From an uncultured delta proteobacterium (lineage in GTDB: Bacteria; Desulfobacterota; Desulfobacteria; Desulfobacterales; JAFDCJ01), in assembly GCA_963769935.1 (NCBI GenBank), contig CAVYNY010000013.1, positions 160,001 through 224,000 of the forward strand: 64,000 bases of DNA. Reading direction: 5' to 3'. This document shows, piece after piece, positions 32,471-42,897 of this stretch. A program made the position numbers and the translations under genes. Under the pieces are notes generated by a model that saw only the letters and a list, made by a program, of their open reading frames with translations, did no database searches and was not told the origin of the DNA. The stretch's first letter is position 1; the number at the start of each line of letters is the position of its first letter.

Positions 32471-33265
32471 TTAAACCGCCACCGGCGCCCGAATGCCGGG
32501 ATACGGATCGTAGCCGACTACCTCGAAATCCTCGTATTTGAAATCAAAGAGCGAGGACACGTCGGGATTGATTTTCATCTGCGGCAGCGCCCGCGGCTCA
32601 CGCGTGAGCTGAAGCTCCGCCTGCTCCCGGTGATTGAGATAAAGGTGCGCATCGCCAAGCGTATGCACGAAATCACCCGGCTCAAGTCCCACGATTTGCG
32701 CAACCATCAGGGTCAGCAAAGAATAGGAGGCGATGTTAAAGGGAACGCCGAGGAAAATATCTGCGCTGCGCTGATACAGCTGGCAGGACAGTCGGCCGTC
32801 GGCCACATAAAATTGAAACAGGGTATGACAAGGCGGCAGCGCCATTTTTTTAATTTCACCCACATTCCAGGCCGATACGATATGACGCCGGGAACTGGGA
32901 TTCGATTTGATCTGCTCTACCACCTGGGTGATCTGATCAACGTGCCTTCCATCAGCCGTTGGCCAGGAGCGCCACTGATAGCCGTAAATGGGACCCAGGT
33001 TGCCGTCCTTGTCGGCCCATTCGTCCCAGATCGACACACCATTTTTGTGAAGCGAACGGATGTTCGTGTCCCCACTTAAAAACCAGAGCAGCTCGCCGAT
33101 AATTGATCGAAAGTGCAGCTTCTTGGTCGTGATCGCCGGAAATCCCTGGGACAGATCAAAGCGCATCTGGTAGCCGAAAACACTGATGGTTCCCGTGCCC
33201 GTGCGATCGTCCTTGGGTACACCGTTTGTGCTGACATGACGTAGTAATTCCAGGTATTGTTTCAT
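32471..33265 (-). CDS. thyA: Thymidylate synthase (264 aa)
   Basis: [42 protein letters not shown]; start MKQYL. Confidence 0.97.
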
Positions 33266-33651
33266 AGTGTTTAGACTCCAGGAGGCTATAATTAATGGAT
33301 TGATCGTCTCGTGCCCACCCACGGATTCGCGGTTGTGCGAAGATACCGCGTAGGATGATGCACCTGCCCGTCTGCGCAACAGTTGAGAATACCGTGTCAA
33401 CACGCAAAATCAGGATTGGCCGCGCCATGCGAACGACTTGCGATGAATAGATATAACTCGAATTATATCATAAACTTGGGATTATATTCGTGTTTTTCCA
33501 ATCAGCACAAGCGGCGGCAAGTATTAAAAACGTATACCAGAAATCTTGTATGTCAATCCCCCTCCAAATACATGATGTTGTGGTTTTGCGGGGCAGCCCT
33601 GGGAACTAAGCGGTGCCATTGGATCACCATGCGATTGATAAATTGAAAAAA

Positions 33652-33697
33652 TATCCATATATAGTGGTTGATTTTTTTCAAACGCTATATATAGTAT
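33652..33697. promoter_or_regulatory. Tandem NrdR boxes
   Basis: tatCcAtATaTaGtgg (33652) and acgCtAtATaTaGtat (33682) match acaCwAtATaTwGtg, 30 bp apart, upstream of nrdA. Confidence 0.75.
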
Positions 33698-33975
33698 ATA
33701 TGCGAGTTTTAATCTGGTACGTTGTGAAAAATCAATCGGTATTAAAGTGGATTGACGACCGGCTCAGCGGGCGACGGTTCTATTAGCCCACGTATTGTGA
33801 ATTAGCACAGTGAATCGAGTTGGTTTCAAAACCCCATATAGTCCGCCTCAGACAGATTACGAATTTCTTCGAACAGAATCCCTTTGACCTGAGTTGAACG
33901 GGGATTTTTCAGCCCGGTCCGCTTGGGGCGGAACCCTGTATCGCTCAACCTATGTCTTTATAAAGGATTTTAGCT

Positions 33976-36792
33976 ATGGCGCATAACTATGTTACCAAAA
34001 GAAACGGTGAAAAAGTGTTATTTGATTCCGAGCGAATCAAAAGGGCTGTCGAAAAGGCCTGGCAAGCAGCTGATTATCCGGTCGAATCAGACCAGTTTGA
34101 GCGGGTTAATGCAGATATAATTACCGAAGTCCACGCTATTCTCACGGATTCATCCATCGGTGTCGAGGACATCCAGGATGTCGTGGAGAAAAATTTGGTT
34201 AATCATGGATTGTATGAAATATCGAAAAGATACATTCTCTACCGGGAGAATCGAGCCAAGATACGTCACGCAAAGAAAAAGACGGTTGTCGAGCAAGCTG
34301 AACAGGGCCGCTTAAAGGTTCGGAAAAAAAGCGGCGCTTTGGTGTCGTTTGATAAAAATAAAGTGATGAACACGTTGGCCCGGGCAGGGGCAGATAACGA
34401 CGTCAGTATCGATATCCATTTGATCTATCAGGAATTTCTAAAAAATATTTATAATGAAATAACGACTACGGAATTAGAAAAGCTGCTGCTGCTTTCCACC
34501 GTTGCATTTATTGAAAGAGATCCCCAACTGAGTTTTGTTGCGGCCGGATTGCTGCTCCAAAGAATATATAAAGACGTCATCGTAAAGTCGGTGCAGCGCG
34601 AAACTTTCGAATTAGAGGCCGGGAAAGCCTTTGTTCGCGGCATTCAGCGCGGCGTGGCAAACAAAATATATGATGAGCGCCTATTATCGTTTGATCTTGA
34701 ATTTCTCGCCTCGCAACTGGATTTCAGCAGGGACGCGATCCTTAAATATATCGGCCTGCAAACGCTTTATGAACGCTATCTGGTCAATTGCCGGCAGCAG
34801 CTCATCGAAACCCCGCAAGCCTTTTGGATGCGGGTTGCCATGGGATTGGCCATTCTGGAAAAGGATCGGGAGGAAAAGTCGCTGGAGTTTTATAAGCTGA
34901 TGTCATCGCTCTCATTTGTCCCTTCCACGCCGACCCTTTTTCATGCCGGCTTGTCCCACCCACAGCTGTCTTCCTGCTACTTGAGCATCGTCAATGATGA
35001 TCTATATCATATTTTCAAAGTCATCGGGGATAATGCGCAATTATCTAAATGGTCCGGCGGCATCGGCAACGATTGGACGCGCGTGCGCGCCACCAATGCC
35101 CACATAGCAAGTACCAACGTGCAGAGCCAGGGGGTCGTTCCCTTCTTAAAGATCGCCAACGATACCACCGTTGCGATTAACCGCAGCGGTAAACGCAGGG
35201 GGGCAACCTGTGCGTACCTTGAGACGTGGCATCTTGATATTGAGGATTTTCTCGATTTGCGCAAGAACACCGGTGACGACCGTCGCCGAACCCACGACAT
35301 GAATACAGCCAACTGGATCCCGGATCTATTTATGCAGCGGGTTAAAGCCGGCGGGCATTGGACGTTGTTCTCACCTGATGAGGTGCCGGATTTACACGAT
35401 TTGTATGGCAAAAAATTCAATGCCCGCTATGAAGAATATGAGCGTAAAGCTGACGCCGGCCGAATAAAGCTTTTTAAAAAGGTTGATGCGGTAACACTTT
35501 GGCGAAAAATGCTGACGCGGTTGTTCGAAACCGGGCATCCCTGGATTACCTTTAAAGATCCCTGCAATATTCGCTCGCCCCAGAAACATGTGGGAGTGAT
35601 TCATAATTCTAATCTGTGTACCGAGATTACGCTGAATAACTCAACGGATGAAACCGCCGTCTGCAACCTGGGCTCCTTAAACCTTTTGAACCATATTGAA
35701 AACAACGCCATCGATCAGCAGCGCTTGGCGGCTACCGTCAAGACGGCTGTCAGAATGCTGGACAATACGATTGATCTGAATTTTTATCCGACACCCGAGG
35801 CTGAAAACGCCAATTTAAAGCATCGTCCCATCGCGCTGGGTTTAATGGGGCTGCAGGATGTGCTGTTCAAGCTGCGGCTGCCGTTTGAAGATGAAAATAC
35901 CCTTGAATTTGTCGATGCAACCATGGAGTTCATTGCTTATCATGCCATTGCATCTTCCTGCGGTCTGGCCAAAGAGCGCGGCGCCTACCAAAGCTTTAAA
36001 GGCTCGTTGTGGGATCAGGGCATCTTTCCACTGGATACCCTGGATGAGCTTGAAAAAGAAAGGGGCGCTGCCGTAGCTGTCAATCGGAAAAAACGGATGG
36101 ACTGGAGTGCGCTTAAAGAATCCGTTGCCGCCTGGGGCATGAGAAACTCCAATGTGATGGCCATTGCGCCAACGGCAACCATTTCCAACATCGCCGGCTG
36201 CTTTCCGAGCATCGAACCCATCTATAAAAACATTTATGTCAAGTCAAACATGAGTGGAGAATTTACCGTGGTGAATGACTACCTGGTAAATGATTTAAAA
36301 CGGCTGGGCTTGTGGACTGAGGAGATGCTGGAACAATTAAAATATTATGACGGCAACATCGGTAAAATCCAGTCGATTCCCGTAGAATTGAAAACACTCT
36401 ATAAAGAGGTCTTTGAAATCGATCCGGTTTTGCTGATAAAAATGACCGCGCTAAGATCGAAATGGATCGACCAGAGTCAGTCGCATAATGTTTTCATGGA
36501 GGGCACCAGCGGAAAAAAGATGGACGAAATCTACACCGCTGCCTGGGAAATGGGATTGAAAACTACTTACTACCTGAGAACCATGGCGGTCAGCCAGATC
36601 GAAAAATCGACGCTTGACGCCGTGAAATACTACTTTACCCAGAAAAGAACCTACCTGAATGAACCGATTCCAGCAGCCCAAGCGGCGCTGGGAGTAGGCA
36701 CCAAAAATTTCAGCCTGGGGGATCAAACGCCCGCACGACACATAGCCAGTTATAAGGACATTTTGGATTCCGACTGCGAAGCGTGCTCATGA
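33976..36792 (+). CDS. nrdA: Class I ribonucleotide reductase alpha subunit with two ATP cones
   Basis: VTKRNG and VRKKSG cones, LSSCYL, SNLCTEI, KTTYYLR, C-terminal CEAC. Confidence 0.97.
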   Translation: MAHNYVTKRNGEKVLFDSERIKRAVEKAWQAADYPVESDQFERVNADIITEVHAILTDSSIGVEDIQDVVEKNLVNHGLYEISKRYILYRENRAKIRHAKKKTVVEQAEQGRLKVRKKSGALVSFDKNKVMNTLARAGADNDVSIDIHLIYQEFLKNIYNEITTTELEKLLLLSTVAFIERDPQLSFVAAGLLLQRIYKDVIVKSVQRETFELEAGKAFVRGIQRGVANKIYDERLLSFDLEFLASQLDFSRDAILKYIGLQTLYERYLVNCRQQLIETPQAFWMRVAMGLAILEKDREEKSLEFYKLMSSLSFVPSTPTLFHAGLSHPQLSSCYLSIVNDDLYHIFKVIGDNAQLSKWSGGIGNDWTRVRATNAHIASTNVQSQGVVPFLKIANDTTVAINRSGKRRGATCAYLETWHLDIEDFLDLRKNTGDDRRRTHDMNTANWIPDLFMQRVKAGGHWTLFSPDEVPDLHDLYGKKFNARYEEYERKADAGRIKLFKKVDAVTLWRKMLTRLFETGHPWITFKDPCNIRSPQKHVGVIHNSNLCTEITLNNSTDETAVCNLGSLNLLNHIENNAIDQQRLAATVKTAVRMLDNTIDLNFYPTPEAENANLKHRPIALGLMGLQDVLFKLRLPFEDENTLEFVDATMEFIAYHAIASSCGLAKERGAYQSFKGSLWDQGIFPLDTLDELEKERGAAVAVNRKKRMDWSALKESVAAWGMRNSNVMAIAPTATISNIAGCFPSIEPIYKNIYVKSNMSGEFTVVNDYLVNDLKRLGLWTEEMLEQLKYYDGNIGKIQSIPVELKTLYKEVFEIDPVLLIKMTALRSKWIDQSQSHNVFMEGTSGKKMDEIYTAAWEMGLKTTYYLRTMAVSQIEKSTLDAVKYYFTQKRTYLNEPIPAAQAALGVGTKNFSLGDQTPARHIASYKDILDSDCEACS

Positions 36793-37041
36793 TTACAGCA
36801 GCTGACAAGGCTTTCCAAATTAAGAAAGGAAGTCATAAAATCCCGGCAGTCGAATTCTATCCGTCAACTCTTGAATGCCTAAAATGAGCTAAAATGCCTA
36901 AAGTGCCTAAAATTAAGAGATGAAATTCGTCTCTAAAGTTGCCTTATCATAACGCCATTAAATAAGGCCGACGGCCAGTTCTACCAACGATATACAAATT
37001 ACAAATAACGCCTAGTCTTGGTTTAAGAGGAGGAGAGACAC

Positions 37042-38037
37042 ATGCCGATTATCAATAGTTCTAAAACGGATCCGAATAAAATACTTCCCATGACCTGCAC
37101 CTGGGCCAGAGAATACTATAAGAACGGAATTGCCAATACCTGGACGCCCGAGGAAATCCCCATGCAGGATGATATTGAGCAATGGAAGTCGTCATCCTTT
37201 TTGAATCCGAAGGAGAGGCGGCTCATTTTATGGAATCTCGGTTTCTTCTCAACGGCGGAGTCGCTTACGGCCAACAATATCGTCCTGGCCGTGTATCACC
37301 ATGTCACGAACCCGGAATGCCGCCAGTATCTGCTGAGACAGGCCTTTGAGGAAGCCGTCCATACCGATACTTTCATTTATTGCTGTGACTCTTTAGGGCT
37401 GGATCCGGAGGAGATTTACACCATGTATGCAACGATTCCTTCGATCAAAGATAAGGATCAATTTGTCGTTGACCTTACCCAAAGTGTCGACAATCCGAAT
37501 TTTACAACCGTGGGTGAAAAGAATATTCAAAAATTCCTGCACGATTTAATCGGTTTTTACGTCATCATGGAGGGTATCTTTTTTTACGCCGGCTTTGCCA
37601 TGATGCTCGCGCTCAAGCGGCAGAATAAAATGGTCGGAATTGGTCAACAGTTTGAATATATTATGCGTGACGAGAGTCTTCACCTGGCCTTCGGCTGCGA
37701 TTTGATCAACACCATTGTCGATGAGAATCCGTCGGTATGGTCATTGGATTTTCAAACCGAGATTACCGATCTTATAGTTCAATCGGTTAGACTGGAAAAA
37801 ATATATGCTCAGGATGCCTGCCCGGAGGATACCTTGGGAATCAATTCGAGCTTATTCGGTGGCTATGTGGAATATGTTGCCGACCGAAGGCTTGAGCGCA
37901 TACGGCTTAAAAAAGTTTTTGGGACGAATAATCCTTTTCCCTGGATGAGTCAGTCGACTGATTTAAACAAGGAAAAAAACTTTTTTGAAACCCGCGTCAC
38001 CGAGTATCAGAATGCCGGTGCCTTGGTTTGGAACTAG
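37042..38037 (+). CDS. nrdB: Ribonucleotide reductase beta subunit, class Ic (R2c)-type
   Basis: FFSTAES (Glu as first ligand), EEAVHTDTF (Phe at the radical-Tyr site), MEGIFF, RDESLH, NFFETRVTEYQ. Confidence 0.93.
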   Translation: MPIINSSKTDPNKILPMTCTWAREYYKNGIANTWTPEEIPMQDDIEQWKSSSFLNPKERRLILWNLGFFSTAESLTANNIVLAVYHHVTNPECRQYLLRQAFEEAVHTDTFIYCCDSLGLDPEEIYTMYATIPSIKDKDQFVVDLTQSVDNPNFTTVGEKNIQKFLHDLIGFYVIMEGIFFYAGFAMMLALKRQNKMVGIGQQFEYIMRDESLHLAFGCDLINTIVDENPSVWSLDFQTEITDLIVQSVRLEKIYAQDACPEDTLGINSSLFGGYVEYVADRRLERIRLKKVFGTNNPFPWMSQSTDLNKEKNFFETRVTEYQNAGALVWN

Positions 38038-38192
38038 GATTTTTGATCAATAAGCCGCATTTTGAGAAGAATCGGTTGAGGTTCCGCCGCCGGCCGGCCG
38101 GAACAAAGAATCTTGGTCCAAAGAACCGGGCTTTCAATAATAGAATAATACTGGACAACCCCTATCAAGCAAAAGGATGAGGAGTAAACGAT

Positions 38193-38726
38193 ATGTTAAA
38201 ATCATTAATTGTCGCGATGGCATCCAACAGCGTTATCGGCCACAACGGTGGAATCCCCTGGAGGATTCCGGGGGAACAGAAAATGTTTAAAGAGATTACC
38301 ATGGGGCATTCATTGATTATGGGCCGGAAGACATACGAAACCATCGGCCGGGCGCTCCCCGGCAGGACCAACATCGTCATTTCCCGCCAAACCGACTATG
38401 AGGCCCCGGACTGCATCGTTGTGAATGACTTAAATAGTGCTCTGCAAGCCTGCGATCCCGATGAAAGCGAGGCTTTTATCATTGGCGGGGGGCAGATTTT
38501 TCGGGACACTATTTCTTCGGCCGATAGAATTTACCTGTCCGTGCTGCCAAGGGAGGTGCACGGTGACACCTATTTTCCCGCGTTTTCCGAGTCGGACTTC
38601 GAGATCATAAAGTCCGGCTTCATCGACGCGGTCGTGCCATACTACTTCTACATATATGAGCGGATAAATGGCAGTAAACGCGAGTCTGTTTCGCTTTCCC
38701 TGTCCGAAGCATCGAATTTTTTATGA
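38193..38726 (+). CDS. folA: Dihydrofolate reductase
   Basis: VIG..G.IPW, IMGRKTYE, LPGRTNIV, IIGGGQI, GDTYFP. Confidence 0.95.
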   Translation: MLKSLIVAMASNSVIGHNGGIPWRIPGEQKMFKEITMGHSLIMGRKTYETIGRALPGRTNIVISRQTDYEAPDCIVVNDLNSALQACDPDESEAFIIGGGQIFRDTISSADRIYLSVLPREVHGDTYFPAFSESDFEIIKSGFIDAVVPYYFYIYERINGSKRESVSLSLSEASNFL

Positions 38727-38790
38727 GGGGCAGAGCGATGCCTTAGAATTGGAAGAATAAGAGAGACGGGTACTTTACCCCAACGTTGCA

Positions 38791-38887
38791 AAAGCCGGAG
38801 GGCTTCAGAGTCAAGGCGTCTGAGGGTGAAGTCGTAGTTCTTTACTTCGAACCCTCAGCAACGCAGAATCTGAAGTCCTCGGGCTTT
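38791..38887. repeat. Long imperfect REP-like palindrome
   Basis: aaagccggagggcttcaga..tgagggtgaagt / acttcgaaccctcag..tctgaagtcctcgggcttt. Confidence 0.6.
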
Positions 38888-39748
38888 CCCCGGATGCTCA
38901 ATCTTTGAAGAAGCCGCTGATTTCAACTGCAATTCCGGAGCGAGTCTTTCCGGCGGCTTCGCCGGTAGCCATGATTATCTCTTTCGAGGCCGGGAAGGTG
39001 AAAGTCATCGCAACTGCCTGTCCGACCGTCATACCGTATCGATCGTCTTGCATTCAGCGATGATCGGAGGATCGCCTTTAAAGAGCTTTCTTGAGTCTCT
39101 TCTGACATTGGTGTTTTTGCCCTGTTTGTTTTCGGAAGGCTCAATAAACACTTTCTCTGTGCACCAAGGTGTAGACAAGAATTGAATTTGGACTCATAAG
39201 TTATTTTTTAACATGATATCATAAGGTTAAATTGAAACCCGATTGCTGGACATCTAAATTCTGGAAATCACACCTCCGAGAAATTAATCCGAATAAATAG
39301 AAAGATGGAACGGACGACTCCGTTACCCAAACAGTGCAATTCTGGCAATCGCTGTGCTTTGACATAAATTGTGGCTGCGGTGCCTGTGTTCCCACATTGG
39401 TTTCTTATCTCCAACTTAGAAATAAAAAAAGCTTATTGCCCATATCTTGCCAGTATATGCAAATTGGCCTGAGTACATATACGTTTCGTAAATATCACGT
39501 GAATCAAAGCTATCAAATTCTGGGATAGCAGCAATCTGCATTTCTATGATTTATAATTTTTGCCACCGACAGGGGGATTTATCCCCCTGTACCCCCTGAT
39601 TTCTTTTTCCCCGATAGGTATGCTATCTGATATTCAACAGCCCTACGCTACGTTCAGTCCGCTCATACGCTGCCGGCTATCGCTTCGGCAGCTACTCGCT
39701 CCCCTCACTGCGCTTCGGGCCTAAAGGCAGTGCCAAGGGTACAAGGGA

Positions 39749-41152
39749 TCAAGGGCCAAGGGCAACGGACCTGGAGAGGCGAAAGCCGAAATCGCTTAGG
39801 CGGCGGCCGAGCCAGTCGGAGTCGCGGCTCGCCGACCGGCAGAGGGGAGCATCGCAGCCCCAGCAGCCGCCGCGCATCACGCGGACAGCGCCTCTGGGTT
39901 TATCGATCCAGGCACTTCCGTCATCAGGTGCACCGTTGTAGTCCTTATGCCAGTCATCTTCTACCCATTCCCAGACGTTGCCGTGCATATCGTAAAGACC
40001 CCAGCGATTAGGCTTTTTAGTTCCAACCCGATGTGTTTTGGAATCAGAATTTGAACTAAACAATGCGTATTCTGTCAACTTATCCGCGTCGTCTCCAAAG
40101 GAGAACGAAGTCGTTGTTCCCGCGCGCGCTGCATACTCCCACTCAGCCTCGGTCGGCAATCGGTAGGCTTCGCCTCCCTCCATCTCGTTAAGCATATTTA
40201 TGAATTTGTGTGCATCCTCCCAGGAAACCTGTTCAACCGGACAGTCATCTCCGCATTTTTTAAAATTTGAAGGATTATCGAAATCCACCATTACCTTTTT
40301 CCACTGGCCCTGGGTGACTTCAGTCTTTTGCAAATAAAAGGGGCGTGATATTTTTACGGTATGAGAGGGATGCTCACTGGCTTCATCCATCCCAGAACTG
40401 CTGCCCATTGTGAAACTTCCCGCAGATATGAGAACAAACTCCATTCCAATACTGTTTTTGAAAGTTTTTGCGTATTTAGGTTGCAAAAGCGACCAACCTA
40501 TAACGCTGAGTATTGCGATCACCGCTATAGCGACAATTCCAAGGGTTAACCTTTTTTGACGCCGTGATTTTGGGCTGGGAATGGACGGTCGTTCATCAAC
40601 GATTTTGCCTTTAGTTTCTTTGTTCGTACGCTGAACCACAGCATTGCGCTTTAGGTCTTCTTTGTGCTTTCCTTCGACCTCCGCATCTTTCCGCTTCAGT
40701 TCCTTTTCTGCTTTAAGTTTTGCCGCTTCCTTCCGCTCTCGTTCCTCTAACTCAACTGGTGGTTTACCGAGGATACTTACGATGTCAGTGACTAATTTCT
40801 GATACCCAGGGAAACTATCCGAGCCATCCCAATCAAATAGCTGCCCAGCATGAATGCCTTCAAACCGGAATGGAAGATCAACTTCCTCAATTGCAATTGG
40901 CACCAGTTTATTGCGATTCAGAGCAAAGGTGGCCTCATCTTTAACATATCGCGAATTGACTGAAAGTTTCGACCACATAACGATAATGCACTTGGCATCA
41001 TTTAACGCTCTCTCAATGGAATCATCAAAGTGTTCCCCTGCACGAAGTTTGGGGTCCCACCAGACTGACCAACCCGACTTTTGAAGCGCATCCGCCAGCT
41101 TTCTTGCCAGTGGCTGTTCTTCGCGCTTATAACTGATGAATATGTCGCTCAT
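39749..41152 (-). CDS. TIR domain - charged linker - TM - FGE-sulfatase (C-lectin fold) protein
   Basis: DIFISYKRE..SVWWD..SRYVKDEA TIR; TM LTLGIVAIAVIAILSVIGW; RLPTEAEWEYAAR, GLYDMHGNVWEW, RGG.W, GFRL. Confidence 0.93.
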   Translation of the reverse strand: MSDIFISYKREEQPLARKLADALQKSGWSVWWDPKLRAGEHFDDSIERALNDAKCIIVMWSKLSVNSRYVKDEATFALNRNKLVPIAIEEVDLPFRFEGIHAGQLFDWDGSDSFPGYQKLVTDIVSILGKPPVELEERERKEAAKLKAEKELKRKDAEVEGKHKEDLKRNAVVQRTNKETKGKIVDERPSIPSPKSRRQKRLTLGIVAIAVIAILSVIGWSLLQPKYAKTFKNSIGMEFVLISAGSFTMGSSSGMDEASEHPSHTVKISRPFYLQKTEVTQGQWKKVMVDFDNPSNFKKCGDDCPVEQVSWEDAHKFINMLNEMEGGEAYRLPTEAEWEYAARAGTTTSFSFGDDADKLTEYALFSSNSDSKTHRVGTKKPNRWGLYDMHGNVWEWVEDDWHKDYNGAPDDGSAWIDKPRGAVRVMRGGCWGCDAPLCRSASRDSDWLGRRLSDFGFRLSRSVALGP

Positions 41153-41684: not shown

Positions 41685-42897
41685 ATCGATCCTCCATCAT
41701 CTGAAATCCTCAGAATTTAAAGAATCTAATTAGCCTTATAACATAATGACAATATTGGTAAAGCGAGCATTTATTTCTGAAGAGATAATAATCAAAATCT
41801 AATGGGTCAGTGCCCTGAGAGCGATAAGGCAGCTGATTAAAGCAATCCGGATGGAATTTCGGCGATGATTTTGAACTCGCTTTAAAAAAATGAAGTGCCT
41901 CAACCAATATTTCAGACACATTGAATTGTTAAGAAAAACTTATTTGATGTGCTCTGAGTTTAGCTTGATTGCAGATAGCTTTTGCCAATAGTTTTAATTC
42001 GACGGTTATTGAAATCTGTAAAGATATAATTCGAATACCAAAACAATTTGGTACTGTCAAATAATGAATAATATTCAGACCAATCTATAATAATCCTATT
42101 CGCAATGACATCTCTATTTGAGTGATAATTGGATTTCCAGCGTCATTAACCCGCTATTGTGCCCTTTTCCTTAATATGGACAATCAAACAGGATTTTAAT
42201 CCATTTTTGGTCCTTTCAGACTCTTTTGACAGGCCGATCGAAAATTAGCCAGTGCAACAGCATGATTTTTGCATAATTGCCCTATTTTGGCCCTTTGGTG
42301 GATAATCAGCCAAGAAAGATAATGGAAAGCTTGAGGGGGGACTTCAAAAAATGAAAAAAAATGTCACAGTCGAAAACCCTGAGACATTTCGTATTTATCT
42401 GGATTATTTGATAATATTTAATTTCGTAAATTCTCTATTTTGTCTATTAATTCCAACGCTCCTTGAAGCATTGGGGCACCTCCTATAGCTATAATTTCCT
42501 AATCAAGCTTGCAAATATATAAAGAAGAGAACTCGCCTCGTTTCTCGCTGTGCCCTGCATCATGTTATTGTTAGCGGTATCGAGCGTCATCGCTGGGGAT
42601 AGATTCGAATCAGGCCTGCCGGTCCGGCAAATTTCCGCCAACGGGTAAAGCCCGCGGGTTATTGAGTTATTGCGCAGTTAAAAACCTGGGTTTCAGTGAT
42701 AGCGAATTATCAAGAAAGCTGGGACACAGATCTTCACAGATTTTCACAGATAAATTATTTAAGGTCCGCCTGGCGGCGGGAAGGTGCAGTGCCGCACCGT
42801 CTGCCGGAAGAAATTAGCCTGTTTTTTCCTCGCCGAAGGCGATGGGCTTTATTGGTTCTTGAATCTGTGTGCATCTGTGAAAATCTGTGTCCAAAAA

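What the first reader, a model, noticed from the sequence alone, without database searches (positions are those of the whole stretch)
39640..41152. TIR-TM-FGE receptor whose C-terminus looks like a DGR variable region (possible remote target)
Seen: the last ~140 nt (39752-39895) turn GC-rich and adenine-poor relative to the rest of the gene. Between the scaffold residues RV.RGG.W, CRSA.R and GFRL, most codons are NNC/NNT (GTC, TGC, GGC, TGC, GAT, CTC, AGC, GAC, TCC, GAC). Downstream are CCCTTG repeats and a GCTGCCG..CGGCAGC hairpin. Known: DGRs mutate template adenines (AAC to NNC) at the C-terminus of FGE/CLec domains and use hairpins 3' of the VR, and bacterial TIR domains act in immunity. 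Inference: a hypervariable sensor coupled across the membrane to a TIR effector, with RT and template located elsewhere.
Basis: partly seen in the sequence, partly recalled or inferred. Interest (0 to 1): 0.72.

Follow-up and report, generated by a model that had tools for sequence, protein, structure and literature searches.

The report
Frozen retroelement-written tip on TIR receptor
The last 33 variable codons of this predicted membrane receptor gene carry the adenine-specific scar of a mutagenic retroelement, but the genome assembly holds no template or enzyme to rewrite it and other samples carry almost the same tip, so it is likely a frozen example of a known kind of target.

Summary
The gene (39749-41152, minus) encodes TIR, one hydrophobic helix and an FGE/C-type-lectin domain. 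Its last 138 nt are the most adenine-depleted tail among 2744 long frames in the genome. It aligns without gaps to a real DGR template in another genome of the order, differing at 23/33 template adenines versus 12/92 other bases. It belongs to a family of 30 such tips that share a 3' end, CCCTTG repeats and often the hairpin. Across 15 of them, codon positions 1-2 vary and position 3 does not, the reverse of the gene body. So a DGR wrote it. The 'RT and template elsewhere' part is not supported: this assembly has no template, no Avd and only group-II-type RTs. Five other copies differ at 0-2 sites. No matching template was found in any of 16 target-bearing genomes. Best reading: an orphaned, now static DGR target. 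TIR-CLec and remote targets are published, and this scan has noted similar orphans on other DNA. Signalling across the membrane is untested.

The parts
39749..41152 (-). TIR - linker - TM - FGE/CLec gene, 467 aa
   Evidence: full-length homologs at 72% and 68% identity
40793..41143 (-). TIR_2 domain (aa 4-120). E73 (40934-40936) lies in helix 68-79 and is probably the catalytic glutamate (role recalled, not tested)
   Evidence: Pfam; E73 nearly invariant in 14 sequences; confident model segment that matches SARM1, SPARTA and AbTir TIR folds
40553..40759 (-). charged helical / low-confidence linker (aa 132-200)
   Evidence: helix 132-169, pLDDT under 50 for 161-202; variable in length among homologs
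40484..40549 (-). single predicted transmembrane helix (aa 202-223), preceded by a basic stretch
   Evidence: hydropathy; helix 204-222; absent in several homologs such as P0010, P0016, P0033, P0035
39776..40441 (-). FGE-type C-type-lectin domain (aa 238-459)
   Evidence: Pfam; PDB sequence hits PvdO 5hha E 6e-33 and TvpA 2y3c E 2e-31
39788..39886 (-). DGR-type variable region, codons 423-455
   Evidence: 23/33 template adenines differ vs 12/92 other bases against the template in L069 (125-nt alignment); codon-position inversion across 15 family members
39771..39787 (-). GC-rich constant segment shared exactly with the L069 template; likely the start of IMH
   Evidence: identical 17 nt in window and L069, after which the two diverge
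39732..39770 (-). target-specific 3' segment with four CCCTTG copies spanning the stop codon; likely the rest of IMH
   Evidence: four copies in 18 of 27 family loci, three or more in 25 of 27 (the first two copies were part of the search pattern)
39669..39692 (-). GC-rich hairpin, 7-bp stem and 10-nt conserved loop
   Evidence: a stem of 6 bp or more around a like loop in 14 of 27 family loci; one C-G to T-A compensatory change in L026
39569..39590 (-). second GC-rich hairpin, possibly a terminator or element end
   Evidence: folds; the segment is shared with L012, L013, L026, L030

Best explanation
The 3' end of this TIR-TM-FGE gene was written by diversity-generating-retroelement mutagenesis and is now likely frozen, because the template and reverse transcriptase appear to be absent from this lineage. 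Shown: the adenine-specific signature, membership in a family of targets with shared 3' signals, no cassette in the assembly, and near-invariance among sampled copies. Inferred: an Avd-RT-template cassette related to the one in G306 once copied its template into this gene with A-to-N errors, starting at the GC-rich IMH; the cassette was then lost, or the gene arrived without it, and one variant was fixed. Also inferred and untested: the protein is a single-pass receptor with the lectin-fold tip outside the cytoplasm, and ligand binding would cluster the cytoplasmic TIR domains and switch on NAD+ cleavage or signalling.
For: (1) Gap-free alignment to a real template beside avd and RT (L069): 23/33 A vs 12/92 non-A mismatches, p 3e-9. 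(2) In 15 in-frame family members, entropy by codon position is 0.87/0.75/0.35 in the VR but 0.38/0.33/0.95 in the upstream FGE core (14 of the 15); mean entropy is 1.39 at template-A columns vs 0.34 elsewhere. (3) The window matches 56 of 58 constant family columns. (4) Homologs 86-88% identical in TIR share 1 of 13 variable residues but 14-15 of 16 scaffold residues. (5) No template in G000: after the self hit, the best A-aware match has 29 non-A mismatches in 112 nt; blastn finds none; no Avd; the 10 RT matches look like group II intron RTs (PQGG motif in 8, two are fragments) and score at best 7e-22 against a DGR RT. (6) Other copies: X5 0 differences in 385 nt, X2 0 over the 5' part, X1 1 and X4 2 in the VR, P0122 one residue in the VR. 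(7) Three congeners carry other genes after the same nrdB-dhfr site.
Against: The assembly is a 41-contig draft, and a cassette on a plasmid or unbinned contig would be missed. The four runs are contigs at depth 3-5 from one study that may include the source sample; contigs drop rare variants. Two of the three strain differences (codon 444 position 1; codon 442, seen only as S to G) fall on template-adenine codons, and the third is in a column that varies in the family. The L069 template is related but not cognate (12 non-A mismatches), so the exact donor is unknown. G061 has six targets with nearly clean constant columns and also no template in its assembly, which shows that cassettes may be missing from assemblies even where activity looks recent.
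Confidence: 0.68

Rival explanations
1. A live remote target: the cognate Avd-RT-template cassette exists in the cell or population (unassembled contig, plasmid or integrative element) and still rewrites the tip, perhaps rarely or under stress.
For: The cis signals look intact (IMH-like segment, CCCTTG repeats, hairpin). Only 2 of 58 constant columns deviate. Two of three strain differences sit on template-adenine codons. In the related P0036 cluster one member (P0128) has a wholly different 3' half of the VR on an otherwise near-identical protein. Remote targets are published (PMC5758913, PMC7517822, passages).
Against: No cassette in a 96.7%-complete genome. A homing event should change many adenine positions at once (from general knowledge of DGRs), whereas five other copies differ at 0-2 sites; X1's one VR difference is what its background of 5 in 896 nt predicts. 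Only 1 of 23 genomes of the genus has a DGR RT at E 1e-30, and its template is of another type.
Confidence: 0.17
2. Hit-and-run diversification: the cassette for this target family travels on a mobile element, rewrites every chromosomal gene that carries the shared IMH and hairpin while it is resident, and then leaves, so genomes keep freshly written tips without a template.
For: 30 targets with different N-termini (TIR, NACHT/STAND-like, HD-like, metallophosphatase-like) in 16 genomes and 7 metagenome contigs keep the same DNA scaffold across families and classes, while upstream third positions are far more variable. No matching template was found in any of the 16 genomes, including well-assembled ones (G217 30 contigs, G312 20 contigs). 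Orthologous targets in G343 and G574 have rewritten tips.
Against: No mobile carrier was found: three viral pattern scans were empty, viral RTs are at most 46% identical to the G306 RT, phages gave no match and plasmids only two partial FGE matches. Repeated loss, or transfer of targets alone, explains the same pattern. The G306 cassette lies on a 2.5-kb contig with no context.
Confidence: 0.12
3. Not DGR-derived: an ordinary FGE binding loop under diversifying selection on a GC-rich patch.
For: Binding-loop residues vary in any FGE family. The genome's other close FGE gene (C39) also has a somewhat A-poor tail (0.13 vs 0.22).
Against: Selection on amino acids does not fix third positions: the variable codons keep C or T at position 3 in 14-15 of 15 sequences while positions 1-2 vary. 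Non-coding 3' repeats and a hairpin are conserved too.
Confidence: 0.03

Closest known systems
FGE-type (CLec1, category b) DGR targets, type example Treponema denticola TvpA and its remote targets (Wu et al., PMC5758913, passages; PDB 2y3c)
   Same: C-terminal VR in an FGE/CLec domain, A-to-N signature, IMH-like 3' end, GC-rich inverted repeat downstream, gene far from any RT. Wu et al. list FGE targets with Toll-like-receptor, NTPase and metallophosphatase domains (b7-b11).
   Different: In those cases the template and RT are in the same genome; here none was found. The hairpin lies about 57 nt past the stop, behind CCCTTG repeats.
DGR-diversified putative antigen sensors of multicellular bacteria (Thiohalocapsa PB-PSB1; Dore et al., PMC10907252, passages)
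   Same: TIR, NACHT/nSTAND and metallophosphatase domains fused to CLec VRs; some targets are membrane-anchored with periplasmic CLec; remote or incomplete loci occur.
   Different: There diversification was shown in reads and nine DGRs are in the genome. Here there is no cassette and no hypervariation, the gene stands alone without MoxR/vWA or STAND partners, and the word start 'Desulfo' does not occur in that paper's main text.
Cyanobacterial remote variable proteins (Vallota-Eastman et al., PMC7517822, passages)
   Same: Dispersed CLec paralogs with grafted N-terminal domains including TIR-like ones; a few have TM segments.
   Different: They were defined by homology to a template in the same genome, a test this gene fails.

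Membership tests
DGR target gene (VR-bearing) | VR at the 3' end of a CLec/FGE domain | tested here: met
   Pfam FGE aa 238-459; aligns with TvpA through the VR
DGR target gene (VR-bearing) | Differences from a template concentrated at template adenines | tested here: met
   23/33 vs 12/92 against a non-cognate template of the same lineage; the cognate template was not found
DGR target gene (VR-bearing) | Variation at codon positions 1-2 with position 3 fixed | tested here: met
   0.87/0.75/0.35 vs 0.38/0.33/0.95 upstream
DGR target gene (VR-bearing) | IMH: GC-rich constant end shared with the template, then diverging from IMH* | tested here: met
   17 nt identical to L069, then divergent; assignment by sequence only
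DGR target gene (VR-bearing) | GC-rich inverted repeat downstream (present in a minority of DGRs) | tested here: met
   39669-39692; 14 of 27 family loci, one compensatory change; function untested
Active DGR or remote target | Template repeat in the same genome | tested here: not met
   draft assembly, 96.7% complete
Active DGR or remote target | DGR-class RT and Avd in the same genome | tested here: not met
Active DGR or remote target | Excess variation at VR adenine positions within the population | tested here: inconclusive
   0-2 differences in five other copies, but these are contigs, not raw reads
TIR NADase immune effector | TIR fold with the conserved glutamate | tested here: met
   Pfam TIR_2, fold matches, E73 nearly invariant; that this is the catalytic residue is recalled
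TIR NADase immune effector | NAD+ cleavage on ligand-driven oligomerisation; anti-phage phenotype | not testable with these tools
   needs bench assays
Catalytic formylglycine-generating enzyme | Conserved active-site cysteine pair | tested here: not met
   C430 and C433 sit on variable codons and are not kept in homologs; best PDB hits are PvdO and TvpA, far above the enzymes

The most novel reading that the evidence does not exclude
A phylum-wide set of chromosomal immune-type receptors shares one targeting signal (IMH, CCCTTG repeats, conserved-loop hairpin) and is re-diversified only when a mobile DGR cassette passes through, so each lineage keeps a fixed 'drawn' receptor repertoire without carrying the mutator. 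This TIR-TM-lectin gene would be a Toll-like receptor whose specificity was set that way.
Probability: 0.12. Interest if true: 0.7.

Novelty: new member of a known kind. Interest (0 to 1): 0.28.

Why it matters
As it stands it is one more orphaned DGR target, in a group of sulfate-reducer relatives not named in the main text of the paper on DGR antigen sensors that I searched. It shows that VR signatures outlast their cassettes, which template-dependent surveys miss (PMC8144416 says its method cannot see remote targets). The family's shared 3' signal is a ready search handle. If the cassette proved to be a transient visitor, that would be a new mode of DGR action. If the TIR-TM-CLec protein signals across the membrane, it would be a simple test case for bacterial Toll-like receptors with variable ectodomains.

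Tried and rejected
Template in own genome: blastn at word size 7, A-aware scans in halves and whole, motif searches: none. The one motif hit on C14 reads as unrelated sequence. DGR RT or Avd in own genome: none. The DGR cassettes in G018 (L018), G061 (L048, L063), G343 (L131), G801 (L221) and G933 (L219) have templates of other types (20-37 non-A mismatches in 112 nt), and the loci L051 and L220 hold no recognisable template. Template patterns: 1 of 401 genomes of the order (G306), 0 in viral contigs; family end in viral contigs 0. The G306 template used as query hit 38 of 401 genomes, none closer to the window than G306. No VR for the G306 template is assembled in G306. The alignment of the G933 template was out of register and was redone. 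Three frameshifted tips (L036, L038, L027), the broken L012 and length-variant L074 were left out of the entropy test; L127, L128 were also left out. The IMH columns were selected by the search pattern, so their low entropy is not evidence. The hairpin shuffle value (0.0065) used a pattern fitted after seeing the family and is not relied on. The AlphaFold model is poor over the FGE domain (pLDDT under 50 for 342-457), so no pocket analysis was made. Earlier scan notes: nothing by sequence, nothing relevant in this genome. The metagenome and genome collection scans were each spent on the target motif, so these collections were not scanned for the template itself. Supplements of the four papers were not read; their target tables could list members of this family.

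Full report
Observation. The ORF at 39749-41152 (minus strand) is 467 aa: TIR_2 at aa 4-120, FGE-sulfatase at aa 238-459, and one strongly hydrophobic stretch at aa 202-223 behind a basic run. The last 138 nt hold 10 adenines (7%) against 30% in the body, and GC rises from 0.47 to 0.71. Among 2744 stop-to-stop frames of at least 350 aa in the genome this is the largest adenine drop (0.23; next 0.14). Four CCCTTG copies span the stop (39734-39762) and a 7-bp GC stem lies at 39669-39692.

Is it a DGR variable region? Searches with the tip and its 3' end found 29 further distinct loci with the same ending: in 15 other genomes of the phylum-level group and 7 metagenome contigs. L012, L019 and L028 are one sequence and L013 and L020 another; each was counted once. 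Record titles and protein labels point to Desulfobacterales-type deltaproteobacteria. The N-termini differ (TIR, TIR with STAND-like NTPase, NACHT-like, HD-like, metallophosphatase-like; read by eye from the translations, not all scanned). In 15 in-frame members the entropy by codon position is 0.87/0.75/0.35 over codons 423-455, but 0.38/0.33/0.95 over 22 upstream FGE codons (14 of the 15). Amino-acid selection cannot give that inversion; A-to-N copying of AAC codons does. A real template of the same lineage lies in G306, directly after avd and a DGR-type RT (L069). It aligns to the window without gaps, differs at 23 of 33 adenines and 12 of 92 other bases (p 3e-9), shares the 17-nt GC-rich end exactly and then diverges, as IMH and IMH* are described to do (PMC5758913, passages). 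The gene after that template is about 51% identical over its N-terminal 277 aa to family targets in G343 and G574, which ties the cassette lineage to the family. With 12 non-adenine mismatches it is not the window's own donor. At protein level, the two closest full-length homologs (86-88% identical in TIR) share 1 of 13 variable residues but 14-15 of 16 scaffold residues. Three or more CCCTTG-like copies are kept in 25 of 27 loci, and a stem around a like loop in 14 of 27, with one compensatory change in L026. Part of the repeat was in the search pattern, and the region's overall folding is unremarkable (z -1.5).

Is the diversifier present? Not in this assembly (8.0 Mb, 41 contigs, 96.7% complete). 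The best A-aware match after the self hit has 29 non-adenine mismatches in 112 nt. There is no Avd homolog. The ten RT matches look like group II intron RTs (PQGG motif in eight, two fragments) and score at best 7e-22 against a DGR RT that scores 2e-93 on a DGR RT in G061. One of 23 genomes of the genus has a DGR RT, with a template of another type. None of the 16 target-bearing genomes yielded a matching template: 9 were searched with a template pattern, 5 had no DGR RT, and 2 had an RT with no matching template in the 3 kb around it. All are draft genomes, so this means not found rather than absent.

Is it varying? Contigs of near-identical strains cover the tip in four runs of one study: X5 0 differences in 385 nt, X2 0 over 39824-39981, X1 1 in the VR (5 in 896 nt overall), X4 2. 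A protein from another collection, P0122, differs by one residue in the VR and one upstream. This argues for a fixed allele. The limits are real: depth 3-5 contigs hide rare variants, the study may include the source sample, and two of the three differences fall on template-adenine codons. Other clusters show both states: P0001/P0123 and P0007/P0129 have identical tips, while P0128 has a rewritten 3' half relative to P0036. The site after nrdB-dhfr holds other genes in 3 of 3 congeners examined, so the gene is a lineage-specific insertion there, possibly gained without its cassette.

Mechanism. Shown: DGR signature, family membership, no cassette in the assembly, near-invariance. Inferred: past mutagenic homing from an L069-like template, then loss of the cassette or separation from it (0.68). 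Rivals: live remote target with an unassembled cassette (0.17), a visiting mobile cassette (0.12), no DGR origin (0.03). Protein function is inferred only. The TIR part models confidently and matches SARM1, SPARTA and AbTir folds, and E73 is nearly invariant; its catalytic role is recalled. The basic run before the helix suggests TIR inside and lectin outside (positive-inside rule, recalled). Several homologs lack the helix, so membrane coupling is not a family-wide need. The FGE domain is closest to PvdO and TvpA, and its two extra cysteines are variable-codon products.

Comparison with print. From passages only (supplements not read): Wu et al. (PMC5758913) list FGE targets with Toll-like-receptor, NTPase and metallophosphatase domains and remote targets more than 100 kb from the RT. 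Dore et al. (PMC10907252) describe TIR- and STAND-bearing CLec targets, TM-anchored ones and remote loci. Vallota-Eastman et al. (PMC7517822) describe remote targets with TIR-like domains. Roux et al. (PMC8144416) note that remote targets escape their survey. Three literature searches listed no paper on this target family, which is a narrow check. Earlier notes of this scan report similar orphan tips on other DNA, one on a cyanobacterial TIR-lectin gene; I did not check them.

Verdict. A real DGR-written variable region on a TIR-TM-FGE gene, a new member of a known kind, most likely orphaned and static. The open point worth following is why a family with so well conserved a DNA scaffold lacks its template in every genome tested. 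Interest 0.28.

Noticed in passing
G061 (L032, L036, L038, L040, L041, L042; L048, L063): Six family targets in one genome, two frameshifted inside the VR, several followed by long near-perfect inverted repeats (17-32 bp) around the same loop; two unrelated DGR cassettes are present but no matching template.
   Followed up: partly
G306:C338 (L069): avd-RT-template cassette on a 2.5-kb contig, followed by an HD-like gene homologous to family targets in G343 and G574; no VR for it is assembled.
   Followed up: partly
P0036 cluster (P0036, P0125, P0127, P0128): A TIR-deleted TM-FGE variant; most members have a decaying tip while P0128 has a rewritten 3' half that restores the family ending, a possible homing or recombination event.
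   Followed up: no
L012 (G018:C253): Family gene with an internal deletion that joins the start of the FGE domain to the VR out of frame, while the downstream repeats and hairpin are intact.
   Followed up: no
L018 (G018:C1192): Complete DGR (FGE target, avd, RT, template) whose template and VR differ almost only at adenines by eye; a positive example within the genus.
   Followed up: partly
window 38700-38890 and 42710-42890: Dispersed repeats flank the low-GC interval that holds the gene: about 117 nt at 97% on C33 and C31, and about 180 nt at 87-90% on C21, C1, C35, C8; MITE- or REP-like.
   Followed up: no
G000 C9:5319, C11:199940, C33:42175, C34:18124, C39:23590: At least five more TIR-linker(-TM)-X genes with other C-terminal domains (WD40-like, repeat beta domains, acyl-carrier-like), suggesting a modular TIR receptor family in this genome.
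   Followed up: no
window 32471-38726: thyA, nrdA, nrdB and dhfr cluster just before the insertion site; a second dhfr-like match lies on C28. Gene names are from reading the translations.
   Followed up: no
G000 C11, C13, C17: Four near-identical group-II-type RT copies, plus others at contig ends.
   Followed up: no
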